Shown here: in pieces, positions 33,890 through 57,236 of the stretch
Position numbering within the stretch: position 1 is the stretch's first letter
Layout of the letters: every line of letters starts with the position of its first letter
Source of the DNA: Dehalococcoidia bacterium
GTDB taxonomy: Bacteria > Chloroflexota > Dehalococcoidia > UBA2979
Length of the DNA: 64,000 nt
Assembly: GCA_965249675.1 (NCBI GenBank)
Contig: OZ252250.1
Location: forward strand, 300,941 to 364,940
Direction: 5' to 3'
The notes under the pieces: generated by a model
Database searches by the model: none
The model's input: the letters and a program-made list of their open reading frames with translations, nothing else
What the model was told of the DNA's origin: nothing
Made by a program: the position numbers and the translations under genes

Positions 33890-34638
33890 GCCCGACCGCG
33901 GGCCCACCGTGCAGTACGGAGGAGCTCCTGATCGTGCTGATGTCGCGAGACATCCGCGATTGGGAGACCTGCGCCTGCGGCGCTCTGTCGATGATCCCGG
34001 CGGCCTCGATGCTCCTCGCCGAGGAGACCCACGCGCCCCAGATCGAGGTGATCATCCTTGGCAGCCGGGACCTCGATCGCAATCTCGGCAAGGACATCCA
34101 CTTCCTCGCCCAGCGCGGGAAGCTCGATCTCTTCTACCACTCGGCCGTGCAATTCGATGCCGAGGGGAACTTCAACCTTCACGTGCTCGGCGATCCCGAC
34201 TCACCGGATCGCCGGCTACCCGGGGGATACGGCTCGGGGCTCCTCTCCTACATGTCGAGGCGGGTCTTCTTCTTCCGCACCGAGCACTCGACGCGCACCT
34301 TTGTGCCGAAGGTCGACTTCATCTCCGGTGCGGGGTTGACCCCTCCTGAGATCAAGCGCGCCTCAGAACCCTTCCGCGTCTACACGACGATGGCGATCAT
34401 GACCTTTGATCGGCAGCGCGCTCGCTACGAGGTGGAGTCGATCCACCAGGGATTCACGGCCGACGACGTGCGCGCCAACACCGGCTTCGATGTGGACATC
34501 CCCGAGGCCTGCCCGGTCACCCCGCCGCCGTCAGAGGCCGAACTTGAGACGCTGCGCACGACGGTGCGCCAGCGCATGATCGACACCGGCACCTACCCGG
34601 AGTGGGCCACGGCGGCGCTCCAGCCGGTGGCCAGCTGA
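33886..34638 (+). CDS. CoA-transferase subunit B (family I beta)
   Basis: 250 aa. Its start overlaps the subunit A stop. HSAVQFDAEGNFNLHVLG (the family's GN.N segment), GGYGSG, and a C-terminal part typical of GctB-like subunits. Confidence 0.85.
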   Translation: MSPTAGPPCSTEELLIVLMSRDIRDWETCACGALSMIPAASMLLAEETHAPQIEVIILGSRDLDRNLGKDIHFLAQRGKLDLFYHSAVQFDAEGNFNLHVLGDPDSPDRRLPGGYGSGLLSYMSRRVFFFRTEHSTRTFVPKVDFISGAGLTPPEIKRASEPFRVYTTMAIMTFDRQRARYEVESIHQGFTADDVRANTGFDVDIPEACPVTPPPSEAELETLRTTVRQRMIDTGTYPEWATAALQPVAS

Positions 34639-44316: not shown

Positions 44317-44658
44317 ATGCCGATGATGTTCGGGTTTGCGGTCCAGCGTCGCCAGATGCTTGAGGCGGAGCTCGTGCGGATCGTCGAGGAGCTGCCGTCG
44401 CTCGGGGTCCTGCGCCTCTACGTCACCGGCGCCTTCGGCCGCCGCGAGGTGCGGGCCGACACCCCGCTTGAGGTGGTCGTCGTGCACGAGACCGGAGAGC
44501 CCTTCCGCCGCCGCGCCGAGTTCTTCGTCGATCACCTCCGGCCACGCCTCGAGACCCACTTCTGGGTCTACACGCCCGAGGAATTTCGGAGGCACGCTCA
44601 GGATGACCCGGTGCTGGCGGGCGCGATCGCCCTCGCCGAACCCGCCTATGCCCGCTGA
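44317..44658 (+). CDS. Minimal nucleotidyltransferase (MNT) domain protein, putative antitoxin of a HEPN/MNT pair
   Basis: 113 aa. LRLYVTGAFGRREVRADTPLEVVVV aligns with the GS...DxD NTase core, but reads GA...DTP. Its 3-prime end overlaps the HEPN ORF. Confidence 0.7.
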   Translation: MPMMFGFAVQRRQMLEAELVRIVEELPSLGVLRLYVTGAFGRREVRADTPLEVVVVHETGEPFRRRAEFFVDHLRPRLETHFWVYTPEEFRRHAQDDPVLAGAIALAEPAYAR

Positions 44659-45064
44659 CGAGACGGCCAGGTGGCGCAGGCAGGCCGGCTTCGACCTGGA
44701 GGACGCCCGCCTCTGCCGGGAGGCCGGCCGGCATGCTCCCGCCTGCTTCTTCAGCCACCAGGCTGCCGAGAAAGCCGTCGTCGCCTACCTCCACGCGCGC
44801 GGCGCCGATCTGGTCTGGGGGCACGGGCTCGCCGACCTCTGCGAGGACGCGATGGCCTTCGACCCCTCCTTCGACCTGCTGAAGTCGAGCGCCGTTCACC
44901 TCGATCGGCACTACCTCGGCGCCCGCTACCCGATCGGGCTGCCGGCCGGTGTGCCGTCTGAGGTCTACGACGAGGTCGACTCGGGCCGCGCGATCGAGAT
45001 CGCCACGGAGGCGCTGCGTTTCATCGACACGCAGCTCGAGGCGCTCCGGGCCGACGGGAGCTGA
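44648..45064 (+). CDS. HEPN domain protein, putative toxin of a HEPN/MNT pair
   Basis: ATG 44648 overlaps the MNT stop by 11 nt. A..DLEDARLC....H..ACFFSHQAAEKAVVAYL and LDRHYLGARYP are classic HEPN (PF05168-like) helices. Confidence 0.75.
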   Translation: MPADETARWRRQAGFDLEDARLCREAGRHAPACFFSHQAAEKAVVAYLHARGADLVWGHGLADLCEDAMAFDPSFDLLKSSAVHLDRHYLGARYPIGLPAGVPSEVYDEVDSGRAIEIATEALRFIDTQLEALRADGS

Positions 45065-47181: not shown

Positions 47182-48090
47182 ATGGGGAACCGAGTGCGCG
47201 CGCCGCGATGGTGGTCGGTGAGGAGCGTCGACGACGTGATCGGCCGGCTCCCAGTGATCGACGCTTGAACCCTTGACGTGCAAGCCGTAGACCTCCCGAT
47301 CGTTCTCACGATGGTGCTTCTGAATAGGCCGGAGTATCGCGCCGTTCTCGACGGATTGGTCGAATTCCGTCGCAGTGTCGCCGTCCACCTTGAAGACAAC
47401 GCTCTCGACGCCCCTCTGGAGAATCTCCCTTATCTCTATCAGCGGTGGTGCTTGCTTGAAGTTGTCGACTCCGCGACGCGCGTGGCACGGGAACGAGGCT
47501 TCCGGATCGTCGAGGAGCGCCTGTCCCGCCGGCGGCAGGCGGCGCTGTTTATCGAAGTGCTCCCCGCAGGGCAGCCCCTCCTCAGGTACCGACACGACGA
47601 GTCAGGCACGGAGGCCACGCTTACGCATGAGCGGACATTCGGTCGCACCGGGTCGCCCCGTTCGGTGAGCTTCCAACAGCGGCCCGACATAGTGCTCGAA
47701 GTTCGAGCGCCTGACTCCGCGCCACGGCTCTTCGTGTTCGACCCCAAGTACAAACTCGACAGCGAAGACCGTGATGACGAAGAAGGGTTGACTGGGCGTC
47801 CCAAGAAGTCCGATATCGACAAGTGCACGCGTACCGCGACGCAATACGCGAAGAGGACGGTGAGCGAGTGATTGAGTACGCGGCGATCCTCTATCCGGGC
47901 CCCAGCCGGCACTTCGGTGACGACGTTGCGGCGCTTGAGGCGGTCGCGGGGCGTGAGACCGAACTCCAGGTTGAGCTCGACTCGGTACCTGAGCGGCGCC
48001 TTGAAGACAACTACGCGGTGAGGGCCGCACCCTGCACGATTGCGTCGCCGATCGACTTCGCCTCTACCCAGGGCGATCCAGCGCACGACC
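47182..48090 (+). pseudogene. DUF2357-like PD-(D/E)xK restriction-type nuclease remnant (N-terminally truncated, with an in-frame TGA and a 1-nt deletion)
   Basis: LNRPEYRAVL..., LYQRWCLLEVV and QQRPDIVLEV...RLFVFDPKYKLD...KKSDIDK, then a frame break at 47823/47824 before (M)HAYRDAIRE...EYAAILYPG. In-frame TGA at 47266-47268. The natural 3-prime end is unclear. Confidence 0.55.
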
Positions 48091-48094
48091 GGTC

Positions 48095-48859
48095 TCAGAC
48101 CTTCTGCTGCCACTGCGCCCGCGCGAGCACAAGTCCGTCGACGGCGACGGCCCCTGCCAGCCTGAGCGCCCTTGCGACCTCGAGCATGTCGTGGCCCGTC
48201 GTGAACACATCGTCAATGACCAGGACCCGCTGGGAGACGGCCGCAGGGTCAGGTATCTGGAGGGCGGCGCGAAGCTGTTCACTCGCGATGTCGTGGCGCC
48301 GCTTCCACCCTTTCCCGCTCATTGTGTCGGTCTCCGCAGTCTTCACGATCAGCGGACGATCCCGACGAAAGGGCCAACCGCCCGGATCCTCAATCACGGC
48401 GTGTTGCACGATTCGATCGATCTGGCTCCACGAACGGTGCGCGCCAGGACCCGTGAAGGCGGGCATCGGAATCAGGGCGTCGTAGTCGTGGAACTCGTCT
48501 GCGTTCTCCTCCAGATAGCCGAGAATCACGCGCGCGAGGATGGGTGCCCATACCGTTTTCTCGTCGTACTTATACCGGCGAATGACGCGACGCATGGGGT
48601 CGGAGTCGAGTGCGACTGCGCGAACCCGCCCGTACCAGCGCTCGTCGGGCGTCCAGTTGCAGATTGGGTTGCCGCAGGGGGCATGAGGCTCCGCCAGCGG
48701 GTGGCTACAGAGTGCACAGCGCGCGAGCGGGGGCAGGTGCGTGTATCTGGACGCGCAGGTGAAGCAGATTTCGACCGAGCCCGATCTTCGGTAGGCGCAG
48801 TGCTGGCACTGGCCGAAGCCTGGAGGCTGTGGGCTGAGACTGTCGAACCGCTGTGGCAC
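48095..48859 (-). CDS. ComF-family phosphoribosyltransferase with an N-terminal double zinc ribbon
   Basis: ORF trimmed to GTG 48859, 15 nt after the dprA-like stop. CQHC..CFTC...CALC..CGNPIC Cys pairs. RRVIRRYKYDEK. PRPP loop VLVIDDVFTTGHDM. Confidence 0.8.
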   Translation of the reverse strand: MPQRFDSLSPQPPGFGQCQHCAYRRSGSVEICFTCASRYTHLPPLARCALCSHPLAEPHAPCGNPICNWTPDERWYGRVRAVALDSDPMRRVIRRYKYDEKTVWAPILARVILGYLEENADEFHDYDALIPMPAFTGPGAHRSWSQIDRIVQHAVIEDPGGWPFRRDRPLIVKTAETDTMSGKGWKRRHDIASEQLRAALQIPDPAAVSQRVLVIDDVFTTGHDMLEVARALRLAGAVAVDGLVLARAQWQQKV

Positions 48860-48873
48860 GGCGGGGCGTCTTG

Positions 48874-49824
48874 TCAGTCGCCCAAGCTGAAGGCGAGCTG
48901 CTGACGTCCATCTGTGATCTGCGCAATGCGCTCGGGCGTGCGAAGACGTTCCAGCACGTCGTCGAGGTCGGACACCTCGATGGCCCGCTGCGGGTAGCGG
49001 CGTCGGTAGCCCTGTGCCCAAGCCTGCCTGGTAACGAGCGATCTGAGCAGGAATGCGTACTTGCCATGCTCCAGCGCGAGGCGCGCCTGCATCTTCGCGC
49101 CTGACGTGCTGCCCGCCTCGATCACGACTGTCCCCTGGCTGATGCCGGACATCGTGACGTTCCGCTTCGGGAAGTTGTAGCTCGCTGGCGGGCTATCCGG
49201 CCAGAACTGCGAGACGATGGCACCCGTGGCGGCTATCCGCTCGGCCAGGCCTCGGTTCTCAGGAGGGTAGGTCCGCGTGATCCCGGAGCCGACCACGGCG
49301 ATGGTCCGGCCGCCGGCGTCGAGGGTGGCCGTGTGTGCCGTAGTGTCGATCCCGCGGGCCAGTCCGGAGACCACGGTGACACCAGCCGCGGTGAGCATCG
49401 TCGCCATCCTCTGCGCACGGGAGAGGCCTTCTGCCGACGCCTGGCGCGTACCGACGACGGCTACTGATCGCGCGTCCGATGCGCGCAGCGAGCCACGGAC
49501 GAAGAGGAACGGCGGAAGGTTGAAGACAAGCTCGAGGTTCGCTGGGTACTGCTCGTCGAGCACGCTGATTAGCCGCGCCCCTGCTTGCTCCGCGCGCTCG
49601 ATCTGGTCGTCGACCCACGCAAGACGCTCGTCTTCGGTCTCGCGCGACGAATTGATGAGTCTTCGCGCTTTCGATGCGACATCCGACCGTTCGACGGGTG
49701 TTCCCGCAAGGAGGTGACCGATGCCACCTTCGGCGAGCGCCTCGCGAGCAAGGAGGTGCCAGTCAATGCCCTTGATCGCGCAGAGGGAGAGCAGTTGCCG
49801 GACGTCTCGGGAGTCACTCATCAT
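48874..49824 (-). CDS. DprA/Smf-family (SLOG Rossmann) protein
   Basis: ORF trimmed to ATG 49824 (GGAGGTGG upstream). YPANLELVFNLPPFLFVRGSL, VAVVGTRQAS, VVSGLARGIDTTAH, FPKRNVTMSGISQGTVVIEAGSTSGA. Confidence 0.85.
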   Translation of the reverse strand: MMSDSRDVRQLLSLCAIKGIDWHLLAREALAEGGIGHLLAGTPVERSDVASKARRLINSSRETEDERLAWVDDQIERAEQAGARLISVLDEQYPANLELVFNLPPFLFVRGSLRASDARSVAVVGTRQASAEGLSRAQRMATMLTAAGVTVVSGLARGIDTTAHTATLDAGGRTIAVVGSGITRTYPPENRGLAERIAATGAIVSQFWPDSPPASYNFPKRNVTMSGISQGTVVIEAGSTSGAKMQARLALEHGKYAFLLRSLVTRQAWAQGYRRRYPQRAIEVSDLDDVLERLRTPERIAQITDGRQQLAFSLGD

Positions 49825-49879
49825 GAGTACCCGCCCACCTCCAGAGAACGACCGTTCCAAACTTAGATGCGAACACCTA

Positions 49880-50194
49880 TTAGTTGCTCCACGCGCGACC
49901 CCGAAGCAGTCCTTCGACTTCGGCTGTGAGGGGATGGACTTCTCCGGTGGCGACATCGAGAGCCTTGAGGACGCCAAGGCTGGGCTGATCACCCACTCTC
50001 CAATCAGGTTCGGGAGCCAGTTCGTTGAAGAAGACGTGGCGCCGATCCTCCCAGGTCGGCTCCTTGTCGAGGCCCGGTCCCCACCAACTGTCGCCAGCCT
50101 GGTACAGGTGCGGATACAGGCCATCGCCCTCCTGAGCCTGGACAGCCAGCAGAACGGGTATCGCTGCCAGCGATGCGAGGAGTCCGCGCGTCAT
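49880..50194 (-). CDS. Small hypothetical secreted protein (first gene of the dprA-like/comF-like operon)
   Basis: 104 aa. Signal peptide MTRGLLASLAAIPVLLAVQAQ. Coding-like codon usage. Its stop lies 55 nt upstream of the dprA-like start. No homology recognised. Confidence 0.45.
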   Translation of the reverse strand: MTRGLLASLAAIPVLLAVQAQEGDGLYPHLYQAGDSWWGPGLDKEPTWEDRRHVFFNELAPEPDWRVGDQPSLGVLKALDVATGEVHPLTAEVEGLLRGRAWSN

Positions 50195-50199
50195 GAAGC

Positions 50200-51291
50200 G
50201 AGCATAGCTGCGGCGAAGTCGAGGTTCCAGACCTCGTCTCGCTCCCGGACTTCACGAGCCGGGAGACCCTCTCAATGGGCTCCCTCGTGGTGGACGAGAG
50301 AGGCGCTCAGGTGGTGCGGCGCATGTTCACGCTGCACCCGCAGGGTCACTCGACCGCTTGCTGGTATCAGCGGCGAACGCCGAGGGACCGCGAACGAGAC
50401 TGGGCCGGCCGTTCACTCGCGGAGCTGTCGAGGAGATCCTGCGGAATCGCGTGTACACCGGAGTCTTGATCTGGTCGCCCGGAACCGCGGACGAGGATGT
50501 GGTCGATGGTGCTCACCAAGCGATTGTCGATGCGGAGGTGTTTCGCGACGTGGCAGCGGTACGACGCGAGCGGCGGACCTAGACCGGACCGAGGGGGCGC
50601 AAGGGCACAGTGCGCACCTACCCGCTCACCCGGCGCGCGTCCCGCTACTACTGCGGCGGTTCCCTTTTTCGGCGACACGGGCAGCCGGACGAACAAGCGC
50701 CGGATGCGCCACGCCGCCGGTTCGTGTGTCTATCGCCAGTCCTTTAGCTCAGACCTCCTTGAGCGGCAGGCCCGCGAGTTGGCGGTGGAGCGGCCGAGAC
50801 TGCCACCCGACAGCATCAAGCGCATCGCCATCGCCGCGACGAGAGCACCGGAGGGCAGCCATGCTGTGAAAGTGCAACGGCTGCAGAGCGCACTCGAGAA
50901 GTTGCGACAGCTATACACCTGGGACGACATCGACAAGGCCGAACACCGCAAGCGGCGCGGTGAAATTGAGCGTCAGTTGAAGGAGGTGTCCCCGAACCCA
51001 CCGGTCGAGCTCAGGAAGTTCGAGCGGGGGATGGAGTACCTCTCGCCGCTCGGCCAGACGTGGGATGACGCGCCGCTGGAGGAACGTCGCGAGATCGTCA
51101 ATCTGGTGTTTGAGGAGGTACGGATCGGAGCCAGAGGCATCCAACACGTCGAGCTTCAGGAGCCCGACCGGTCGCTCCTCAGCGCACGTGGTCGGATTGG
51201 TCGGGGAGGCCGGAGTCTCCCCGACAAACTCGACCACCTGTGGAGCCCGTCGGAAGTCACCATCGGGGGCGTTGACCGGGCGGTCGGATAG
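50200..51291 (+). pseudogene. Large serine recombinase, 3-prime fragment only (recombinase domain, zinc ribbon and coiled coil), frameshifted; the catalytic resolvase domain is missing
   Basis: LVVDERGAQVVRRMF..GHST, then a frame break, then LLVSAANAEGPRTRLGRPFTRGAVEEILRNRVYTG...AIVDAEVF. This is followed by a degenerate zinc ribbon (RYYCGGSLF in an alternate frame) and the coiled coil LQSALEKLRQLYTWDDIDKAEHRKRRGEIERQL. Confidence 0.7.
50539..51214 (+). repeat. 676-bp direct repeat, copy 1 (recombinase 3-prime end plus the 17-nt tRNA-Pro core)
   Basis: Matches 56501-57176 at a constant offset of 5962 bp. One mismatch was noticed (A/G within GCAAGGGCAC(A/G)GTG). The match ends exactly after TGGTCGGGGAGGCCGGA. 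Confidence 0.9.
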
Positions 51292-51671: not shown

Positions 51672-52835
51672 ATGGACAGCGAACTGTTCACGAAACCATC
51701 CGGACGGCTGGTTGAAGTCGAGCGTGACCCCCCCTTGCCGACGTACGTCGCCTACGTCCCCGACCCCCTCCCTCCGGAATCCGAAGGTGGAGCGATCGCA
51801 GCCGTGGCTCGGGAGCTGGGAGAGGCCAGCCTTGCGCTCGGCCAGCTGACCGGCATCGGTGAGTTCTTCCCGAACCCCGATCTGCTCGTGCGCTCTTACC
51901 TGCGGCGCGAGGCCGTCGCAAGCTCCCGCATCGAAGGCACGATGGCTTCATTCTCCGACATCGTCTCCTTCGAAGCCGGCATACGTCCTCCGCCCGGGAG
52001 CGACGCGAAAGATGTCCTCAACTACATTACGGCTCTCAATGGCGGCCTCCGGGCTAGCCCGGACGAGGTGTTTTCGCTCGATTTCGTCCGTTCGCTCCAC
52101 AGGCAGCTGATGACGGGGGCGCGCGGTGAAGCGTTCAGCAATCCCGGGGAGTTCCGCTTCATCCAGAACCATGTCGGCATCCTGAACGGGATCGAGAACG
52201 CCACCTACGTACCACCGCCACCCGCGGAGATGCACACGGCCCTCGATCAGCTCCTTGGGTACGTGAATGCGGCGAAGCCGGGAACACCGCCGTTGGTCGA
52301 GGTCGCGTGGATGCACTACCAGTTCGAGGCGGTTCACCCCTTCCTCGACGGCAACGGCCGCGTGGGCCGCCTCCTCATCCCACTTCTCCTAGCCGCGCGC
52401 CACAAGGTCAGCCATCCGCTGCTCTATCTCAGCCCCTACTTCGAGCGACGACGGGTCGACTACTACCGGCTCTTACTCGCGGTCAGTTCGACTTCGGCCT
52501 GGGAGGAGTGGCTTCGTTTCTTCCTCGTCGGAGTGGCCGAGCAGGCGCGAGAGGCCATCTCCGCGGCACGTCAGGTGCTCGCGCTCCGAGAAGATTGGAG
52601 GGAGCAGCTCACGGCCGCTGGCGCCACTCCGTCGGCCCACCGCCTTGCCGAGCTCGTCTGCGAGTACGTGGCGGTGACGCCCAAGCTCGTCGAGCTGCGC
52701 CTCGACGTAGCTCGACAGACCGCGTACAACGCGATCCACGTGCTTGTGGACGTAGGCATCCTGGAGCCGGTGCCGGTAGGCCAGCGAGGGAGCGTCTACA
52801 TCGCCCATCGACTCGTGAGAGTCCTCAGTCCGTAG
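51672..52835 (+). CDS. Fic family protein (AMPylase-type), class II auto-inhibited, with a C-terminal winged helix
   Basis: 387 aa. Active site HPFLDGNGRVGR. The N-terminal inhibitory motif SSRIEG fits (S/T)xxxE(G/N). Appears intact. Confidence 0.9.
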   Translation: MDSELFTKPSGRLVEVERDPPLPTYVAYVPDPLPPESEGGAIAAVARELGEASLALGQLTGIGEFFPNPDLLVRSYLRREAVASSRIEGTMASFSDIVSFEAGIRPPPGSDAKDVLNYITALNGGLRASPDEVFSLDFVRSLHRQLMTGARGEAFSNPGEFRFIQNHVGILNGIENATYVPPPPAEMHTALDQLLGYVNAAKPGTPPLVEVAWMHYQFEAVHPFLDGNGRVGRLLIPLLLAARHKVSHPLLYLSPYFERRRVDYYRLLLAVSSTSAWEEWLRFFLVGVAEQAREAISAARQVLALREDWREQLTAAGATPSAHRLAELVCEYVAVTPKLVELRLDVARQTAYNAIHVLVDVGILEPVPVGQRGSVYIAHRLVRVLSP

Positions 52836-52875: not shown

Positions 52876-53201
52876 CTAGAGTGTGGCAAGACCGAGGTTC
52901 ACGAGCCGGAACGCCATCGCTGACTGGCTCACGCCGTAGCGGCGAGCTAGGTTCCCAACAGCTTCGTCACCAGCGGCGTCGATACCCAGCTCGCCAACGT
53001 CGGCAAGCAGCCAGTCCCTCGGCATCAGGAGCTCTGCCGCGAACATGTGCGCCTGGATCTCCTCCCGGTCGCTTCCCGCAGCAGCCTTTTGATCTCGCCG
53101 GAAACACGAAGCGCCTGTCGACAAAGGTCTGCGGCCCATGCAGACAAAAGATGCCCGAGTTCATGCGCGATCGTGAATCGCTGGCGCACGCCGCTCTGTG
53201 C
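52876..53201 (-). pseudogene. ImmA/IrrE-family zinc metallopeptidase remnant (3-prime part; the 5-prime part continues at 55700-55780 across the IS21 insertion), also frameshifted
   Basis: RQRFTIAHELGHLL (HExxH) abuts the IS21 end. The downstream part EEIQAHMFAAELLMP is in another frame. Joining the IS flanks restores ...LPDVNSAQSGVRQRFTIAHELGH. Confidence 0.7.
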
Positions 53202-53266: not shown

Positions 53267-54049
53267 TCAGCTGGTCGGAGCACCTCCCTTCGAGGCGGTG
53301 GTGACCCGCAGGCGATAGGACTCGCTGCCGGTCTCGATGATGTGGGCGCGGAACGTGAGCCGGTCGACGACCGCGGCGGCGAGGCGGGGGTCGGCGAAGG
53401 TGCGGCCCCACTCCGAGAACGGCGCGTTGGAGGCGACTGCCACCGAGGCCCGCTCCTCGCGCTCGGTGAGGACCTGGAAGAGCAGTTCGGCTCCGCGCGG
53501 GTCGAGGTGGACGTAGCCGAACTCGTCGAGGCAGAGCAGGTCGAGCCGGCCGTAGCGGGCGACCAGGCGTGAGAGCGTGCGCTCGTCGGCGGCTTCGGCC
53601 AGTTCGTTCACGAGCTGTGCCGCCGTCGTGTAGCGCACCCGCAGCCCGCGCTGGCAGGCGGCCATGCCGAGCCCGATCAGCAGGTGCGACTTGCCGGTGC
53701 CGCTGTCTCCGAGCAGCACGACCGGCTGGCCCGAGGCGATCCACTCGCCGCGCTCGAGCGTGGCGAGCATGGTCGGGTCGACCGTGGGGGCCGCCGCCAG
53801 GTCGAAGTCGGCGAGGTGCTTGAGCCGGGGGAAACGGGCCTCGTGGATGCGGCGCTCACGGCGGCGCGCATCGCGGTCGTCGAGCTCGGATTGGAGCACC
53901 TCGGCGAGGTAGGCGAGATGGGTGAGCCGGTCGCGCAGCGCGGCCTCGGCGAGCGCGCCGGCCTGCTGACGGACCGTGGGGAGGTGCAGCGCACGGCTGG
54001 TCGCCTCGACCTGAAGCGCCGCCGCCTGCTCGGTCACAGGTGTGCTCAT
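53267..54049 (-). CDS. istB: IS21 helper ATPase IstB
   Basis: 260 aa. Walker A LLGDSGTGKSHL and Walker B LLCLDEFGY. Its start overlaps the istA stop. Confidence 0.9.
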   Translation of the reverse strand: MSTPVTEQAAALQVEATSRALHLPTVRQQAGALAEAALRDRLTHLAYLAEVLQSELDDRDARRRERRIHEARFPRLKHLADFDLAAAPTVDPTMLATLERGEWIASGQPVVLLGDSGTGKSHLLIGLGMAACQRGLRVRYTTAAQLVNELAEAADERTLSRLVARYGRLDLLCLDEFGYVHLDPRGAELLFQVLTEREERASVAVASNAPFSEWGRTFADPRLAAAVVDRLTFRAHIIETGSESYRLRVTTASKGGAPTS

Positions 54050-55575
54050 CGCGTGCTCGCGGCGAGCAGCGCGTCGTAGCCGGCCAGGCTCGGCGCCGGG
54101 CGTTCGAAGCGCCTGAGCGCCGGCCGCTCCACAACGGCGGTCTCGCGGCGGCCGTCGGCGACGCGGCGCGCCTCGATGGCGATCAGCGCCGGGTCCACCG
54201 CGCCCAGCTGCTCCACCGCATCGAGTGCTGCGTGCACCGAGGCGGCGGGGAGGTGGCGGTGCAATAGCAGCACCTCGATGAGCGCCCGCGTCCCGGCGCC
54301 GTCACCGAGCTTGCGGCGGGCACGCTGCCAGAAGCGTTCGTGCGCGGCGGTGAAGCCACCGCCTGAGCGCGCCTGCGCGAGCGCGATCGAGCCGGGCAGC
54401 GCCCCGGGCTTGCGGGACAGCACCTCGAGGAAGTGGTCCAGCACGAGGACCTCGGATCCCTTGTGCGCGCTGCGCTCGTGGCGGGCAACCACCCGGCCCG
54501 CGACGAGGGCGGTCACGGTCCCGCCGCCCAGGCGGACGTCCACCGTGCGGCCCGCGAACGCCGCGGGGACCGAGTAGCGCGAGCCACGCACGGAGATGCG
54601 CGCCTTGCGGTCGGCCTTCGCTTGCAGTGCGACCGTGGGGTCGAAGGGTTCGGCGGGGAGGGGCCGCAGCGCGGGCCGCTCTGCCTCCGCCGTCTGGCCG
54701 ACGGTGGCGAGCCGGCCAGCGATGTGGCGGGCTCCGTCTGCGCGGTCGGCCGCCTCGAGCAGCGCGTTCAGCTCGGCCAGGCTCTCGACGCGCGGGACCG
54801 GCACGAGGTGGCGCCGGCGGAAGCGCCCGACCTCGCCCTCCACGCCCCCCTTCTCGTGCGCGCCCGCGATGCCGGGCTCGCAGAAGAAGCTGTCGAAGCC
54901 GTAGTGCGAGCGCAGTGCGGTGAAGCGGTCGCTCTCGATGCGGTCGCGCCCCAGGAGCACGCGCGTGACGGCCGAGCTCAGATTGTCGTAGCGGATCCGC
55001 CGCGGCACCCCGCCGAGGCGCTCGAGGGCGAGCGTGTGGCCCTCGAGGAACGCCTCCTGGCCCTCGCCCGGGAAGCACACGTGGACCGCCCGCCCCGAGT
55101 GCGAGAGCCGCAGCACGAACATCGACAGCTCGGTCAGCACGCCGTCCAGCCAGACGCTGACCCCGCCGAAGTCGACCTCCGCCTCCTCGCCCGGCGGATG
55201 CAACTGGGGGATCGTCACGACTGAGCGACCGGACTCCAGCTCGCGGCGCACGCGGCCGACGTAGGCGCGCACCGTCGCCTCGGCGACCGTCGCGCCGTAC
55301 TCATCGACGAGGCGCTCCCAGACCCGCCGCGCCGTGTGCCGCTGCTTGCGCGGCGCGCTCAGGTCGGCGACGAGCCACTCCCGGATGATCTCTACGTACG
55401 GACCGAGCTTCGGCGCCGCTCGAGACGCCTGCTTGCGTTGTGGCGGCAGCGCCGACTGCAGCGCCTGCCGTACCGTGCGCCGGTGCACGTGGTGGCGGCG
55501 CGCCAGCTCGCGTATGGGCAGCCCCTCCTCTCGCCATGCCCGTCGGATATCCTCGAACAACTCCACCCTCGACAC
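54046..55575 (-). CDS. istA: IS21 transposase IstA
   Basis: 509 aa. N-terminal HTH (IRELARRHHVHRRTVRQAL) and a DDE integrase core (EVDFG...YDNL...). Confidence 0.9.
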   Translation of the reverse strand: MSRVELFEDIRRAWREEGLPIRELARRHHVHRRTVRQALQSALPPQRKQASRAAPKLGPYVEIIREWLVADLSAPRKQRHTARRVWERLVDEYGATVAEATVRAYVGRVRRELESGRSVVTIPQLHPPGEEAEVDFGGVSVWLDGVLTELSMFVLRLSHSGRAVHVCFPGEGQEAFLEGHTLALERLGGVPRRIRYDNLSSAVTRVLLGRDRIESDRFTALRSHYGFDSFFCEPGIAGAHEKGGVEGEVGRFRRRHLVPVPRVESLAELNALLEAADRADGARHIAGRLATVGQTAEAERPALRPLPAEPFDPTVALQAKADRKARISVRGSRYSVPAAFAGRTVDVRLGGGTVTALVAGRVVARHERSAHKGSEVLVLDHFLEVLSRKPGALPGSIALAQARSGGGFTAAHERFWQRARRKLGDGAGTRALIEVLLLHRHLPAASVHAALDAVEQLGAVDPALIAIEARRVADGRRETAVVERPALRRFERPAPSLAGYDALLAASTR

Positions 55576-55710: not shown

Positions 55711-56498
55711 TCACGTCGGGCAGCGGCGGTGGCGGGCTTGCAGGTCGTCGGACAACTCCACACACACCCGGGCACGCCTACCTTCAAGCAGCTCCGCCAG
55801 GCTCGTCGACGTCATCTGGGCGCCACGGTCTGAGTGCAGCGTCAACTGCTGCGGCGAGATCCCGTTGCGGTCGCAGGCGGTGCCCACCAGCGTCCTGGCA
55901 ACCTCGGTCGACTCCGCCGGATCGACCGCCCAGGCGACGATCTTGCGGCTGAAGATGTCGATCACTACGTAGAGGTAGAACCAGCTGCGGTGGTGAGGGC
56001 CGCGGAGGCGCGAGATGTCCCACGACCAGACCTCGTTCGGGCCGCTCGCCTGCACCTGGGGTGCATGGTGGGTCGTGCGTCGGTGACCGCGACGCCGTTC
56101 TCTGACCAGGCCGCGTTCCTCGAGGATGCGGTACATCTGGCGGATCGAGCAGACGTACGAGCCCTCGTCCAGCAGCTGGTAGTAGACCTGGGCGGGCGCC
56201 TGGTCACGAAAGCGTGGTGAGCACAGCAGCTCGGCGATGTGATCGCGCAGCTGGTCGGGGATGCGTGACGGCTGCGGCTGGTGCTGCTCGCGCGGCTTCG
56301 CCTGTGACGGCCGCCTGGCGGCGGCTGCGGTCGGTCCGCTCTGAGTATCCGAAGACCCGACAGGCGCGGGCACGGCCAACCCGCTGGGCCCATGCGTCCA
56401 TAGCGGCGAGCATCTGCGCCCGCCAGTTGGCGTATGCCTGTGCTGGCCGTTCGGCTCGTGTCGGCGCTACCCGTTCTGGCTGCTCGGTCGTTGCGGCA
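55711..56498 (-). mobile_element. IS3-family element fragment (HTH plus rve transposase, frameshifted and 3-prime truncated)
   Basis: ACRVFGYSERT HTH, then LRDHIAELLCSPRFRDQAPAQVYYQLLDEGSYVCSIRQMYRIL, PNEVWSWDISRL, LYVVIDIFSRKIVAWAV and LHSDRGAQMTS. The family sequence stops after LAELLEG. A possible TG... terminus lies at 56498. Confidence 0.7.
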
Positions 56499-56500
56499 TA

Positions 56501-57176
56501 TGTTTCGCGACGTGGCAGCGGTACGACGCGAGCGGCGGACCTAGACCGGACCGAGGGGGCGCAAGGGCACGGTGCGCACCTACCCGCTCACCCGGCGCGC
56601 GTCCCGCTACTACTGCGGCGGTTCCCTTTTTCGGCGACACGGGCAGCCGGACGAACAAGCGCCGGATGCGCCACGCCGCCGGTTCGTGTGTCTATCGCCA
56701 GTCCTTTAGCTCAGACCTCCTTGAGCGGCAGGCCCGCGAGTTGGCGGTGGAGCGGCCGAGACTGCCACCCGACAGCATCAAGCGCATCGCCATCGCCGCG
56801 ACGAGAGCACCGGAGGGCAGCCATGCTGTGAAAGTGCAACGGCTGCAGAGCGCACTCGAGAAGTTGCGACAGCTATACACCTGGGACGACATCGACAAGG
56901 CCGAACACCGCAAGCGGCGCGGTGAAATTGAGCGTCAGTTGAAGGAGGTGTCCCCGAACCCACCGGTCGAGCTCAGGAAGTTCGAGCGGGGGATGGAGTA
57001 CCTCTCGCCGCTCGGCCAGACGTGGGATGACGCGCCGCTGGAGGAACGTCGCGAGATCGTCAATCTGGTGTTTGAGGAGGTACGGATCGGAGCCAGAGGC
57101 ATCCAACACGTCGAGCTTCAGGAGCCCGACCGGTCGCTCCTCAGCGCACGTGGTCGGATTGGTCGGGGAGGCCGGA
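56501..57176 (+). repeat. 676-bp direct repeat, copy 2 (recombinase 3-prime fragment running into tRNA-Pro)
   Basis: Matches 50539-51214. ORF 56666-57181 repeats the recombinase C-terminus and stops at a TGA inside the tRNA T-loop. The left edge abuts the IS3 fragment. Confidence 0.9.
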
Positions 57177-57236
57177 TTTGAACCGACGACCACCTGTCCC
57201 CCAGACAGGTGCGCTACCAGACTGCGCCACTCCCCG
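57160..57236 (-). tRNA. tRNA-Pro (anticodon GGG), 77 nt with encoded CCA
   Basis: The minus strand reads CGGGGAG TG GCGC AGTCTGGTA GCGC A CCTGT CTGGGGG ACAGG TGGTC GTCGG TTCAAAT CCGGC CTCCCCG A CCA. All four stems pair, with one G-U pair in the T stem. U33 and G37 are present. Confidence 0.85.

What the first reader, a model, noticed from the sequence alone, without database searches (positions are those of the whole stretch)
48095..50194. Island-borne operon of a small secreted protein, a DprA/Smf-like SLOG protein and a ComF-like zinc-ribbon PRTase: a candidate conflict module rather than housekeeping competence genes
Three same-strand genes with gaps of 55 nt and 14 nt look intact, amid otherwise decayed mobile DNA, which suggests they are under selection. 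DprA and ComF are normally unlinked core competence/ssDNA-processing genes. Here they are adjacent, on a tRNA-linked island, next to a restriction-type nuclease remnant and a recombinase. As I recall, the toxin-antitoxin/anti-phage system PsyrTA (RqlHI) has a component combining a DprA-like SLOG domain with a PRTase domain, and SLOG plus PRTase pairings were proposed as nucleotide-centred conflict systems. This could be a split version without the RecQ-like partner. The 104-aa signal-peptide protein has no parallel in that system. Alternatively, the island simply mobilises transformation genes.
Basis: inference. Interest (0 to 1): 0.7.

Follow-up and report, generated by a model that had tools for sequence, protein, structure and literature searches.

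The report
Mobile DprA–ComF toxin–antitoxin-type gene pair
The real unit is a 1.8-kb two-gene cassette (a DprA-like single-stranded-DNA-binding protein followed by a ComF-like zinc-ribbon phosphoribosyltransferase) that moves between genomic islands and plasmids, usually sits beside anti-phage genes, and most likely works like the known ShosTA/PsyrTA toxin–antitoxin defence systems; the 'small secreted protein' gene is not part of it.

Summary
The three minus-strand ORFs exist at the stated coordinates, with gaps of 55 and 14 nt. Only two form a conserved unit: the DprA-like gene (48874-49824) and a ComF-like PRTase with eight conserved Cys (48095-48859).

The 104-aa ORF has no homologue among 5.8 billion proteins. 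It lies just outside the 1786-nt block (48094-49876) shared at 90.7% identity with the closest relative.

The DprA-like→PRTase pair recurs with a median 9-nt gap in 36 of 80 genome loci across several phyla. All 25 Streptomycetaceae plasmid hits carry it, as does one predicted viral contig. Its flanks vary and hold far more defence-model matches than the flanks of unlinked ComF genes (327 versus 19 PADLOC families).

The architecture and gene order match E. coli ShosTA, and the logic matches PsyrTA/RqlHI, whose ComF-homologous PRTase domain is genotoxic unless checked by a DprA-like partner. However, both proteins are closer to canonical DprA and ComF than to ShosA and ShosT. The PRTase lacks ShosT's PPase domain. 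The PADLOC ShosA/ShosT hits are non-specific, because E. coli Smf and GntX hit the same models.

Verdict: a ComF-type variant of the known DprA–PRTase toxin–antitoxin/defence kind. Its function is inferred, not shown.

The parts
48094..49876 (-). Extent of the mobile two-gene cassette: a 52-nt leader, the DprA-like gene, a 14-nt spacer and the PRTase gene up to its stop codon
   Evidence: blastn against the closest relative L103 gives one block of 1786 nt at 90.7% identity, covering exactly window 49876-48094. There is no homology on either side.
48874..49824 (-). DprA-like protein (316 aa; N-terminal helical SAM-like domain plus DprA Rossmann/SLOG domain, with no C-terminal winged-helix domain). 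Predicted antitoxin or sensor.
   Evidence: Pfam DNA_processg_A 9.4e-61. TIGR00732 scores 190.1, just under its 191.15 cut-off. The AF2 model has pLDDT 91 and matches S. pneumoniae DprA (TM 0.72), R. palustris DprA (0.74) and E. coli ShosA (0.69) over the full length. The ssDNA-binding arginines R127, R221 and R248 are invariant in the family. The C-terminal tail RxQLA(L/F)xL is conserved.
48095..48859 (-). ComF-like phosphoribosyltransferase (254 aa; N-terminal region with eight conserved Cys, read as a double zinc ribbon, plus a PRTase domain with the VLVIDDVFTTG PRPP loop). Predicted toxin or effector.
   Evidence: Family alignment A1: C32, C35, C48, C51, C62 and C67 are invariant; C18, C21, D216 and D217 are nearly invariant. 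hhalign to E. coli GntX gives 98.5% probability over 215 columns. hhalign to E. coli ShosT covers only 39 columns, at the PRPP loop. The AF2 model has pLDDT 93. The best PDB fold match is H. pylori ComF 7p0h (E 8e-6), and ShosT ranks 14th. One Gly codon is missing before the DD strand.
49825..49876 (-). Conserved leader holding the ribosome-binding site (GGAGG) of the DprA-like gene
   Evidence: It lies inside the block shared with L103. GGAGG sits 13 nt before the ATG. No sigma-70-like promoter was found in 47800-50400.
49880..50194 (-). 104-aa ORF with a signal-peptide-like N-terminus. This is flanking DNA and NOT part of the conserved module; whether it is a real gene is uncertain.
   Evidence: No homologue other than itself. 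No tblastn match in any of 92 related loci. It lies outside the shared block. Codon-position G+C is compatible with coding.

Best explanation
Window 48094-49876 is a self-contained, horizontally mobile two-gene operon of the DprA–PRTase toxin–antitoxin / abortive-infection kind. It is a ComF-type relative of ShosTA and of PsyrTA (RqlHI).

Shown:
- The two genes are tightly coupled: 14 nt apart here, a median of 9 nt in the family, and 4-nt overlaps in some members.
- They are inherited together.
- They move as a unit between islands, plasmids and at least one predicted prophage.
- They usually sit next to known defence genes.

Inferred by analogy:
- The downstream ComF-like PRTase binds PRPP through its DD loop. 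It perhaps binds ssDNA through its zinc ribbons, as ComFC does. When unrestrained it is genotoxic or growth-arresting. This is the case for the ComF-homologous PRTase domain of RqlH and for ShosT.
- The upstream DprA-like protein binds ssDNA and probably RecA, and keeps the damage in check indirectly.
- Phage infection tips the balance towards the PRTase and aborts the infection. The signal could be ssDNA replication intermediates that titrate the DprA-like protein, or host shut-off that depletes a labile antitoxin.

The copy in this window may be attenuated by loss of one conserved Gly next to the catalytic strand.
For: Conserved unit:
- A DprA-like gene lies immediately upstream, on the same strand, in 36 of 80 genome loci found with the PRTase. 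None of the other 44 loci has any DprA homologue within about 8 kb.
- All 25 PLSDB plasmid hits carry the pair (annotated).
- One IMG/VR contig carries it.
- The intergenic gap has a median of 9 nt and is at most 30 nt in 45 of 46 loci.
- Pairwise identities of the two proteins correlate at r = 0.85.

Mobility:
- The closest relative shares only the 1786-nt cassette, set in a different context.
- Linked PRTases form one clade, apart from the syntenic, unlinked ComF genes.

Defence context:
- The two neighbours on each side of 36 linked loci match 327 PADLOC families at E<=1e-6. These include DruE 4e-215, type I REase 1e-158, AbiEi/Eii, GajA/B and AriA.
- Neighbours of 39 unlinked loci match 19 families.
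- GmrSD or type I RM lies next to the pair in L001, L002, L009 and L012.
- In the window, a SoFic-like Fic gene (8e-102) and a HEPN gene are nearby.

Precedent:
- ShosTA has the same architecture and the same A→T order. ShosT toxicity needs the PRPP-binding DD motif, and ShosA needs ssDNA-binding arginines (PMC11961720, PMC12961424). Those arginines are conserved here.
- DefenseFinder-called ShosTA in Actinobacteria tends to be plasmid-borne (PMC10482375).
Against: - No experiment exists on this family.
- Both proteins are closer to the canonical competence proteins than to the validated defence proteins. The DprA-like family HMM scores E. coli Smf at 164 bits and ShosA at 119. The PRTase family HMM scores GntX at 68.6 bits over the full length and ShosT at 16.3 bits over the PRPP loop only (hhalign).
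- The PADLOC ShosA/ShosT/PsyrT hits are not specific. E. coli Smf scores 195 bits on the same ShosA model, and GntX hits ShosT and PsyrT as well as the window's PRTase does.
- DprA and ComFC are reported to cooperate in transformation (own knowledge), so adjacency could reflect a shared ssDNA-handling job.
- CoiA-family genes lie near the pair on two plasmids.
- Some contexts look housekeeping (L007, L103).
- A Dormibacterota/Chloroflexia subclade has partial dprA–comF adjacency within conserved synteny.
- The neighbour comparison rests on crude ORF calling, and on family counts inflated by redundant models.
Confidence: 0.6

Rival explanations
1. The pair is a mobile-element-borne ssDNA-processing module, not a toxin–antitoxin pair. 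The DprA-like and ComF-like proteins would cooperate, as DprA and ComFC do in transformation, to protect ssDNA and load RecA onto it. This would help the element establish, recombine or repair, or would give the host extra transformation capacity.
For: Both proteins are nearer to canonical DprA and ComF than to ShosA and ShosT. The best fold match of the PRTase is the competence protein H. pylori ComF. CoiA-family 'competence' genes and an A24 prepilin-type peptidase lie within a few kb of the pair on Streptomyces and Embleya plasmids. The pair is carried on plasmids and islands.
Against: Immediate neighbours are dominated by defence genes, not by DNA-uptake or conjugation genes. Uptake genes were not looked for specifically in most loci. 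Streptomyces conjugation uses dsDNA (established knowledge), so an ssDNA establishment role is unlikely there. The two validated systems with this domain pair are toxin–antitoxin/defence systems, and in both the PRTase is the toxic part.
Confidence: 0.22
2. These are simply the organism's housekeeping dprA and comF, which happen to be adjacent.
For: The DprA-like protein scores 190.1 against TIGR00732, just under the 191.15 cut-off. No second copy is present in the 64-kb window. In a Dormibacterota/Chloroflexia subclade, a divergent dprA sits next to a syntenic comF-like gene in some species.
Against: The location is a low-G+C island at tRNA-Pro, among IS and recombinase debris. The closest relative, at 90.7% nucleotide identity, carries the cassette in a different place with no flanking homology. 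The same pair occurs on 25 plasmids. ComF model scores are far below the cut-offs: 47 against 233 and 58 against 304. Canonical comF loci show conserved synteny and no dprA.
Confidence: 0.05
3. The cassette in this window is a decaying, non-functional copy: a disarmed toxin inside an eroding island.
For: One conserved Gly is lost six residues before the catalytic DD. This window copy is the only one of the 41 sequences in A1 with a gap there, and the database protein P0001, otherwise identical to it, keeps the Gly. The neighbouring recombinase, PDDEXK and M78 genes are fragments.
Against: Both ORFs are full-length with no frameshift or stop. The AF2 model of the window sequence is confident throughout, with pLDDT 93. 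A 3-nt indel could be an assembly error or a neutral change. Three family members have D and one has N at that position.
Confidence: 0.13

Closest known systems
ShosTA (E. coli P2-like prophage hotspot; Kimelman 2012, Millman 2022, Rousset 2022; structures in Pu 2025 PMC11961720 and Yang 2026 PMC12961424)
   Same: A two-gene operon with a DprA-like protein (SAM-like plus Rossmann domains, no winged helix) immediately upstream of a PRTase-domain protein. The order A→T was verified in phage 10W. The ssDNA-binding arginines of ShosA and the DD PRPP motif of ShosT are conserved. It is carried on mobile elements and defence islands. Both antitoxins end in a similar C-terminal ...QL-x-L... tail.
   Different: ShosT is 424 aa, with an N-terminal PPase-like hydrolase domain and a non-canonical PRTase. 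The protein here is 254 aa, has an N-terminal eight-Cys region read as a double zinc ribbon, and has a ComF-type PRTase. Similarity to ShosT is limited to about 40 residues at the PRPP loop. ShosT is only the 14th fold match. The DprA-like protein is closer to Smf than to ShosA.
PsyrTA / RqlHI (Sberro 2013; Russell & Mulvey 2015, PMC4670107)
   Same: A ComF-homologous PRTase domain paired with a DprA-like partner. The PRTase domain is the genotoxic part and is restrained by the DprA-like protein. The PRTase here matches the C-terminal 60 to 90 positions of the PADLOC PsyrT model.
   Different: There is no RecQ-like helicase, and nothing matches positions 1-590 of the 689-position PsyrT model. 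The gene order is opposite, since rqlH lies upstream of rqlI. RqlI carries an extra C-terminal HTH that is absent here.
Canonical competence proteins DprA/Smf and ComFC/ComF (GntX)
   Same: These are the closest sequence and fold relatives of both proteins. hhalign gives 99.9% to Smf and 98.5% to GntX, full-length, including the zinc-ribbon region. H. pylori ComF is the best PDB fold match.
   Different: Canonical genes are unlinked: E. coli smf and gntX are 0.11 Mb apart, and 44 of 80 ComF-like loci have no dprA nearby. Canonical genes sit in conserved synteny. The pair here is a distinct subfamily: members score 410-520 bits on the family HMM against 164 for Smf. It lacks the C-terminal winged-helix domain of Smf, falls below the NCBIfam cut-offs, and is mobile.

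Membership tests
ShosTA | Adjacent, co-oriented genes with a DprA-like antitoxin gene directly upstream of a PRTase toxin gene | tested here: met
   The window gap is 14 nt. In the E. coli phage 10W locus, shosA is at 129-1178 and shosT at 1180-2454. The family-wide median gap is 9 nt.
ShosTA | ShosT architecture: an N-terminal PPase-like hydrolase domain fused to a non-canonical PRTase (about 424 aa) | tested here: not met
   The protein here is 254 aa, with eight conserved Cys N-terminal to the PRTase domain. Similarity to ShosT covers only about 40 residues at the PRPP loop. The fold is nearer to ComF 7p0h than to ShosT 8zvd.
ShosTA | Sequence-family membership of both proteins (PADLOC ShosA/ShosT models) | tested here: inconclusive
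   The ShosA model PDLC03961 gives 230 bits, and the ShosT model PDLC03962 gives E 3.3e-5 over a partial match. In the controls, E. coli Smf scores 195 bits on the same ShosA model and GntX scores 27 bits on the ShosT model. The hits therefore do not separate ShosTA from DprA and ComF.
ShosTA | ShosA-type antitoxin: SAM-like plus DprA Rossmann domains, ssDNA-binding arginines, no winged-helix domain | tested here: met
   The AF2 model matches ShosA 8zva at TM 0.69 over 309 columns. R127, R221 and R248 are conserved. These features are shared with short canonical DprAs, so they are not specific.
ShosTA | The PRTase is toxic, the DprA-like partner neutralises it without stable binding, and the system protects against phage | not testable with these tools
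   This needs expression and phage-challenge experiments.
PsyrTA / RqlHI | The toxin is a RecQ-like SF2 helicase with a C-terminal PRTase domain | tested here: not met
   Only positions 629-686 of the 689-position PsyrT model are matched. There is no helicase ORF in the cassette.
PsyrTA / RqlHI | A DprA-like partner gene adjacent to the PRTase-bearing gene | tested here: met
   The PsyrA model gives 1.7e-31, but this is generic, since Smf scores 1e-26. The order is opposite to rqlH→rqlI.
Canonical DprA (TIGR00732 / NF008007) | Score at or above the curated equivalog cut-off | tested here: not met
   190.1 against 191.15 (a marginal miss) and 175.6 against 495.
Canonical ComF/ComFC (TIGR00201 / NF008616 GntX) | Score at or above the curated cut-off | tested here: not met
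   47.2 against 233.55 and 57.7 against 304. Homology is nonetheless full-length, and ComF is the best fold match.
Canonical DprA / ComF | Vertically inherited, in conserved synteny, and the only copies in the genome | tested here: inconclusive
   Synteny is not conserved and the cassette is mobile. Whether other copies exist in the 3.07-Mb source chromosome could not be tested. None is present in the 64-kb window.
Defence-island resident | Neighbourhood enriched in known defence genes relative to a control | tested here: met
   327 PADLOC families were hit by 133 neighbours of linked pairs, against 19 families by 143 neighbours of unlinked ComF genes. ORF calling was crude, and families rather than genes were counted.

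The most novel reading that the evidence does not exclude
The pair represents a third, untested family of DprA–PRTase conflict systems, derived directly from the competence proteins DprA and ComFC. On this reading, the zinc-ribbon ComF-type PRTase is itself the ssDNA-guided genotoxic effector, and the DprA-like protein is its ssDNA/RecA-dependent brake. If so, the pair is an evolutionary bridge between natural-transformation machinery and abortive-infection immunity. It would also be a tractable handle on the still unknown biochemical activity of ComFC-type PRTases.
Probability: 0.3. Interest if true: 0.6.

Novelty: new variant of a known kind. Interest (0 to 1): 0.42.

Why it matters
DprA-like plus PRTase pairs are established toxin–antitoxin/anti-phage systems (ShosTA, PsyrTA), so finding another one is not a surprise. 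Annotation tools may already label this family 'ShosTA'.

The point of interest is that both proteins here are much closer to the competence proteins DprA and ComFC than to ShosA and ShosT, yet the pair behaves like a mobile defence cassette. It is widespread in Chloroflexota, Actinomycetota (including Streptomyces plasmids), Acidobacteriota and other phyla.

If the ComF-type PRTase is toxic and DprA-restrained, two things would follow. First, competence machinery and abortive-infection immunity would be linked by descent. Second, there would be a simple genetic read-out for what ComFC-type PRTases do chemically, which is still unresolved.

There is also a caution for annotation. The PADLOC ShosA/ShosT models also hit housekeeping Smf and GntX, so calls rest on adjacency alone.

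Tried and rejected
- PADLOC hits as proof of ShosTA membership. I rejected this after the control, because E. coli Smf and GntX hit the same models nearly as well.
- The 104-aa ORF as a third component. I rejected it: there are no homologues, no match in related loci, and it lies outside the shared block.
- Canonical comF–hpf synteny as a marker of unlinked loci. Only L010 and L071 have hpf, so I used conservation of neighbours instead.
- Sequence search of the PDB with the PRTase. This gave only generic PRTase loop hits; the fold search was needed to find ComF.
- Promoter and terminator scan of 47800-50400. It found nothing above chance.
- GenBank phage collection. No PRTase homologue was found.
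- Supplement of the Actinobacteria defence survey, searched for ShosTA calls on the same plasmids. Nothing was held.
- A left att site for the island carrying the cassette. Only two exact copies of the tRNA-end 17-mer exist, and both lie to the right of the cassette.
- The first genome scan with the 41-sequence alignment. It failed for lack of conserved stretches, and I repeated it with a 14-sequence subset.
- Looking up the window's own DprA-like protein in the contig index. It is not on record.
- Testing for canonical dprA and comF elsewhere in the source genome. This was not possible with the caps and data available.
Full report
**What is in the sequence**

On the minus strand there are three consecutive ORFs.
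- 49880-50194 encodes 104 aa.
- 48874-49824 encodes 316 aa from an ATG, with GGAGG 13 nt upstream.
- 48095-48859 encodes 254 aa from a GTG that lies 14 nt after the previous stop.

The middle protein is a clear DprA/Smf-family protein. Pfam DNA_processg_A gives 9.4e-61, and there is a weak SLOG cluster4 hit. It scores 190.1 against the NCBIfam dprA equivalog cut-off of 191.15.

The last protein matches ComF/GntX models over its full length, but far below their cut-offs: 47 against 233 and 58 against 304. A 41-member family alignment shows eight (nearly) invariant cysteines in the N-terminal 67 residues, which I read as two zinc ribbons. It also shows a PRTase PRPP loop, VLVIDDVFTTG, with the DD pair nearly invariant.

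The small ORF has no family hit in Pfam, NCBIfam or PADLOC.

**The setting**

G+C is 0.63-0.655 between about 46 and 53 kb, against 0.67-0.73 around it. The neighbours are the following.
- A PDDEXK_7 fragment at 47278-47871.
- A serine-recombinase 'Recombinase' domain fragment at 50358-50582, part of a gene split over three frames.
- A full-length Fic protein at 51672-52835, matching the PADLOC SoFic model at 8e-102.
- An M78/IrrE fragment.
- IS21 istA/istB and a second rve integrase.
- A HEPN gene at about 44.7-45.1 kb.

tRNA-Pro(GGG) is at 57160-57236 on the minus strand.

A perfect 676-bp direct repeat joins 50539-51214 to 56501-57176. The second copy ends 17 bp inside the tRNA 3' end, and that 17-mer occurs exactly twice in the window. 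The region therefore looks like two islands stacked at tRNA-Pro, with the DprA/PRTase pair in the distal one.

**The small ORF is not part of the unit**

- It has no homologue except itself among 5.8 billion proteins.
- tblastn finds it in none of 92 related loci.
- The closest relative of the pair is L103, with the DprA-like protein 92% identical. It shares one 1786-nt block at 90.7% identity with the window. That block covers window 49876-48094 exactly: a 52-nt leader, both genes, and an end at the PRTase stop. There is no homology on either side, and a methionine-synthase-family gene lies upstream instead.

The ORF starts 4 nt beyond that block. Its codon-position G+C (0.76/0.47/0.68) is compatible with coding. 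It may be a lineage-specific gene, but it belongs to the flank.

**The two-gene unit is conserved and mobile**

- PRTase homologues at 37-85% identity have a DprA-like gene directly upstream in every context examined except one. The exception is L006, at 43% identity, which belongs to the unlinked clade described below.
- A genome scan recovered 80 PRTase loci. An HMM of the DprA-like family finds a member immediately upstream, on the same strand, in 36 of them. It finds no DprA homologue at all within about 8 kb in the other 44.
- The carriers are Chloroflexota, Solirubrobacterales, Acidimicrobiales, Binatia, Acidobacteriota, Dormibacterota, Frankia, Saccharothrix, Actinokineospora and Umezawaea. 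The nearest relatives are Tepidiformaceae at 62-67% PRTase identity, so the window probably comes from that family.
- The gap between the two genes has a median of 9 nt and is at most 30 nt in 45 of 46 loci. Some loci show apparent 4-nt overlaps. Pairwise identities of the two proteins correlate at r = 0.85.
- In PLSDB, all 25 plasmids with a PRTase hit have a DprA-like gene (50-54% identical) abutting it upstream. These are 23 Streptomyces, one Kitasatospora and one Embleya plasmid. RefSeq annotates the pair as 'DprA' plus 'ComF family/phosphoribosyltransferase'.
- One 65-kb IMG/VR contig carries the pair. GenBank phages carry none.
- In a neighbour-joining tree, the linked PRTases form one clade. 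Its sister is a group of unlinked actinobacterial ComF-like genes with conserved flanking genes. More distant unlinked ones include comF next to hpf.

**Defence context**

I took the two called ORFs on each side of 36 linked pairs (133 proteins) and of 39 unlinked PRTases (143 proteins), and scanned each set against PADLOC at E<=1e-6.

- Linked neighbours matched 327 families. These included DruE (4e-215), type I REase and specificity subunits (1e-158), AbiEi/AbiEii, GajA/GajB and AriA.
- Unlinked neighbours matched 19 families, mostly generic.

Individual loci show GmrSD, type I RM, integrases, transposases and TrwC beside the pair. The comparison is crude. My ORF calling was simple, and family counts are inflated by redundant models. 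The contrast is nevertheless large. Two contexts look housekeeping (L007, L103).

**How it relates to known systems**

PADLOC gave ShosA (7.4e-69) and PsyrA for the first protein, and weak ShosT and PsyrT hits for the second. 40 of the 41 PRTase family members hit ShosT and PsyrT.

A control shows these hits are not diagnostic. Housekeeping E. coli Smf scores 195 bits on the same ShosA model. GntX hits ShosT and PsyrT as well as the window's protein does.

I then fetched a genuine ShosTA locus from the P2-like phage 10W. There, shosA is followed 1 nt later by shosT, which is the same A→T order as here.

Direct comparisons place both window proteins nearer to the canonical proteins.
- The DprA-like family HMM scores Smf at 164 bits and ShosA at 119 bits.
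- The PRTase family HMM scores GntX at 68.6 bits over the full length, and ShosT at 16.3 bits over the PRPP loop only.
- hhalign gives the same picture.
- The AF2 model of the PRTase (pLDDT 93) best matches H. pylori ComF (7p0h, E 8e-6, TM 0.50). ShosT ranks 14th.
- The DprA-like model (pLDDT 91) matches S. pneumoniae DprA, R. palustris DprA and ShosA about equally, at TM 0.69-0.74.

ShosT is a 424-aa PPase–PRTase fusion (PMC11961720), and that N-terminal domain is absent here. PsyrT/RqlH is a RecQ-like helicase with a C-terminal PRTase that the authors relate to ComF. That domain is the genotoxic part, and it is restrained by the DprA-like RqlI (PMC4670107). No helicase is present here.

Shared functional residues are kept.
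- The three ssDNA-binding arginines that ShosA needs (PMC12961424) correspond to the invariant R127, R221 and R248.
- The DD pair that ShosT and RqlH need for toxicity corresponds to D216 and D217.
- The DprA-like family also has a conserved C-terminal tail, R-x-Q-L-A-L/F-x-L. It resembles the tail of ShosA (…TQQLSLLGDE), whose C-terminus makes that protein unstable. This is a lead, not a test.

**Most likely mechanism (confidence about 0.6)**

The cassette is a ComF-type member of the DprA–PRTase toxin–antitoxin / abortive-infection kind.

Shown: operon structure, co-inheritance, mobility, defence neighbourhood, and conservation of the PRPP and ssDNA-binding residues.

Inferred from ShosTA and RqlHI:
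- The PRTase is the toxic effector. It is PRPP-dependent and ultimately damages DNA.
- The DprA-like protein neutralises it indirectly through ssDNA and RecA.
- Infection releases the toxin, either through phage ssDNA or through host shut-off that depletes a labile antitoxin.

The zinc ribbons may give the PRTase ssDNA affinity, as reported for ComFC. That statement rests on my own knowledge and was not tested here.

**Rivals**

- A cooperative ssDNA-processing or competence-like module carried by mobile elements (about 0.22). Its support is the closeness to DprA and ComF, and the CoiA-family genes near the pair on two plasmids.
- Plain housekeeping genes (about 0.05). This is contradicted by mobility and plasmid carriage, but I could not check the rest of the genome.
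- This particular copy is disarmed (about 0.13; not exclusive of the others). The window's PRTase lacks one Gly, six residues before the DD. That Gly is present in 36 of 41 family members and in an otherwise 100% identical database protein.

**Verdict**

The pair fails a defining feature of ShosTA (the ShosT architecture) and of PsyrTA (the helicase). I therefore file it as a new variant of a known kind, not as a member of either family. A survey with DefenseFinder reports that 'ShosTA' in Actinobacteria tends to be plasmid-encoded (PMC10482375). This family may therefore already be labelled ShosTA in practice, but I could not verify that. Interest is moderate.

Noticed in passing
window 50539-51214 and 56501-57176: A perfect 676-bp direct repeat. 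The second copy ends 17 bp inside the 3' end of tRNA-Pro(GGG) (57160-57236, minus strand). The 17-mer TGGTCGGGGAGGCCGGA occurs exactly twice, at 51198-51214 and 57160-57176. This suggests two islands stacked at tRNA-Pro with identical recombinase 3' ends, or a duplication or assembly artefact. The 5.96-kb unit between the repeats could be lost by recombination.
   Followed up: partly
window 51672-52835 (+): An intact Fic/DOC protein with Fic_N. It matches the PADLOC SoFic defence model at 8.3e-102, but reaches only 150 bits against the NCBIfam SoFic cut-off of 550. It is a second candidate defence gene, 1.5 kb from the pair.
   Followed up: partly
window 48215-48260 (PRTase residues about 205-212): The window's PRTase reads ...AAVS-QRVLVIDD..., whereas the otherwise identical database protein P0001 and 36 of 41 family members have a Gly after the Ser. 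This is an in-frame one-codon deletion next to the catalytic strand. It could be an attenuating mutation, a neutral change or an assembly error.
   Followed up: partly
window 44317-45064 (+): A HEPN-domain ORF (Pfam 1.8e-20), preceded by and overlapping a small ORF that looks like a minimal nucleotidyltransferase. This is probably an MNT–HEPN toxin–antitoxin pair. The NTase ORF itself gave no Pfam hit.
   Followed up: partly
window 50275-51291 (+) and 56214-57181 (+): A large serine recombinase gene broken over three reading frames (the Recombinase domain is at 50358-50582). Its 3' part is duplicated next to the tRNA. The frameshifts could be real decay or long-read indel errors.
   Followed up: no
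window 53267-55575 (-) and 55711-56379 (-): IS21-type istB (53267-54049) and istA (54046-55575; rve plus Mu-transposase C-terminal domain), followed by another rve-integrase ORF. An M78/IrrE peptidase fragment lies at 52876-53139.
   Followed up: no
L095 1949-3514 and L096 658-3023 (Streptomyces venezuelae and Embleya plasmids): Genes annotated as CoiA-family competence proteins lie 1.5 to 2 kb from the DprA-like/ComF-like pair on both plasmids. On the Embleya plasmid there is also an A24 prepilin-type peptidase gene. Elsewhere in the same stretches lie a restriction endonuclease and a Tox-REase-5 protein. The CoiA association bears on the competence-like rival and was not pursued.
   Followed up: no
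L048, L059, L062, L066, L069 versus L051, L053, L055, L060, L061 (Dormibacterota / Chloroflexia): A subclade of ComF-like genes with only four N-terminal Cys has conserved downstream genes (about 210-250 aa, then about 435-470 aa). Some species have a divergent dprA (about 220-238 bits on the family HMM) directly upstream and others have none. This may be a lineage where housekeeping dprA and comF are adjacent, and a possible source of the mobile cassette.
   Followed up: partly
DprA-like family C-termini (window 48877-48940; P0095-P0214): A conserved extreme C-terminal motif, R-(R/Q)-Q-L-(A/T)-(L/F)-x-L. E. coli ShosA ends similarly (…TQQLSLLGDE), and its C-terminus is reported to make the antitoxin unstable. 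This is a possible shared degron or partner-binding tail.
   Followed up: partly
window 34522-34617 (-): ARAGORN calls a 96-nt 'tRNA-Asp' with anticodon ATC. The length and anticodon are unusual, so this is probably a false positive or a degenerate tRNA-like element.
   Followed up: no
PADLOC models PDLC03961 (ShosA), PDLC03962 (ShosT), PDLC03928 (PsyrT): Housekeeping E. coli Smf and GntX hit these defence models (195, 27 and 33 bits). Annotation of ShosTA and PsyrTA therefore depends on adjacency and thresholds, not on the HMMs being specific.
   Followed up: yes
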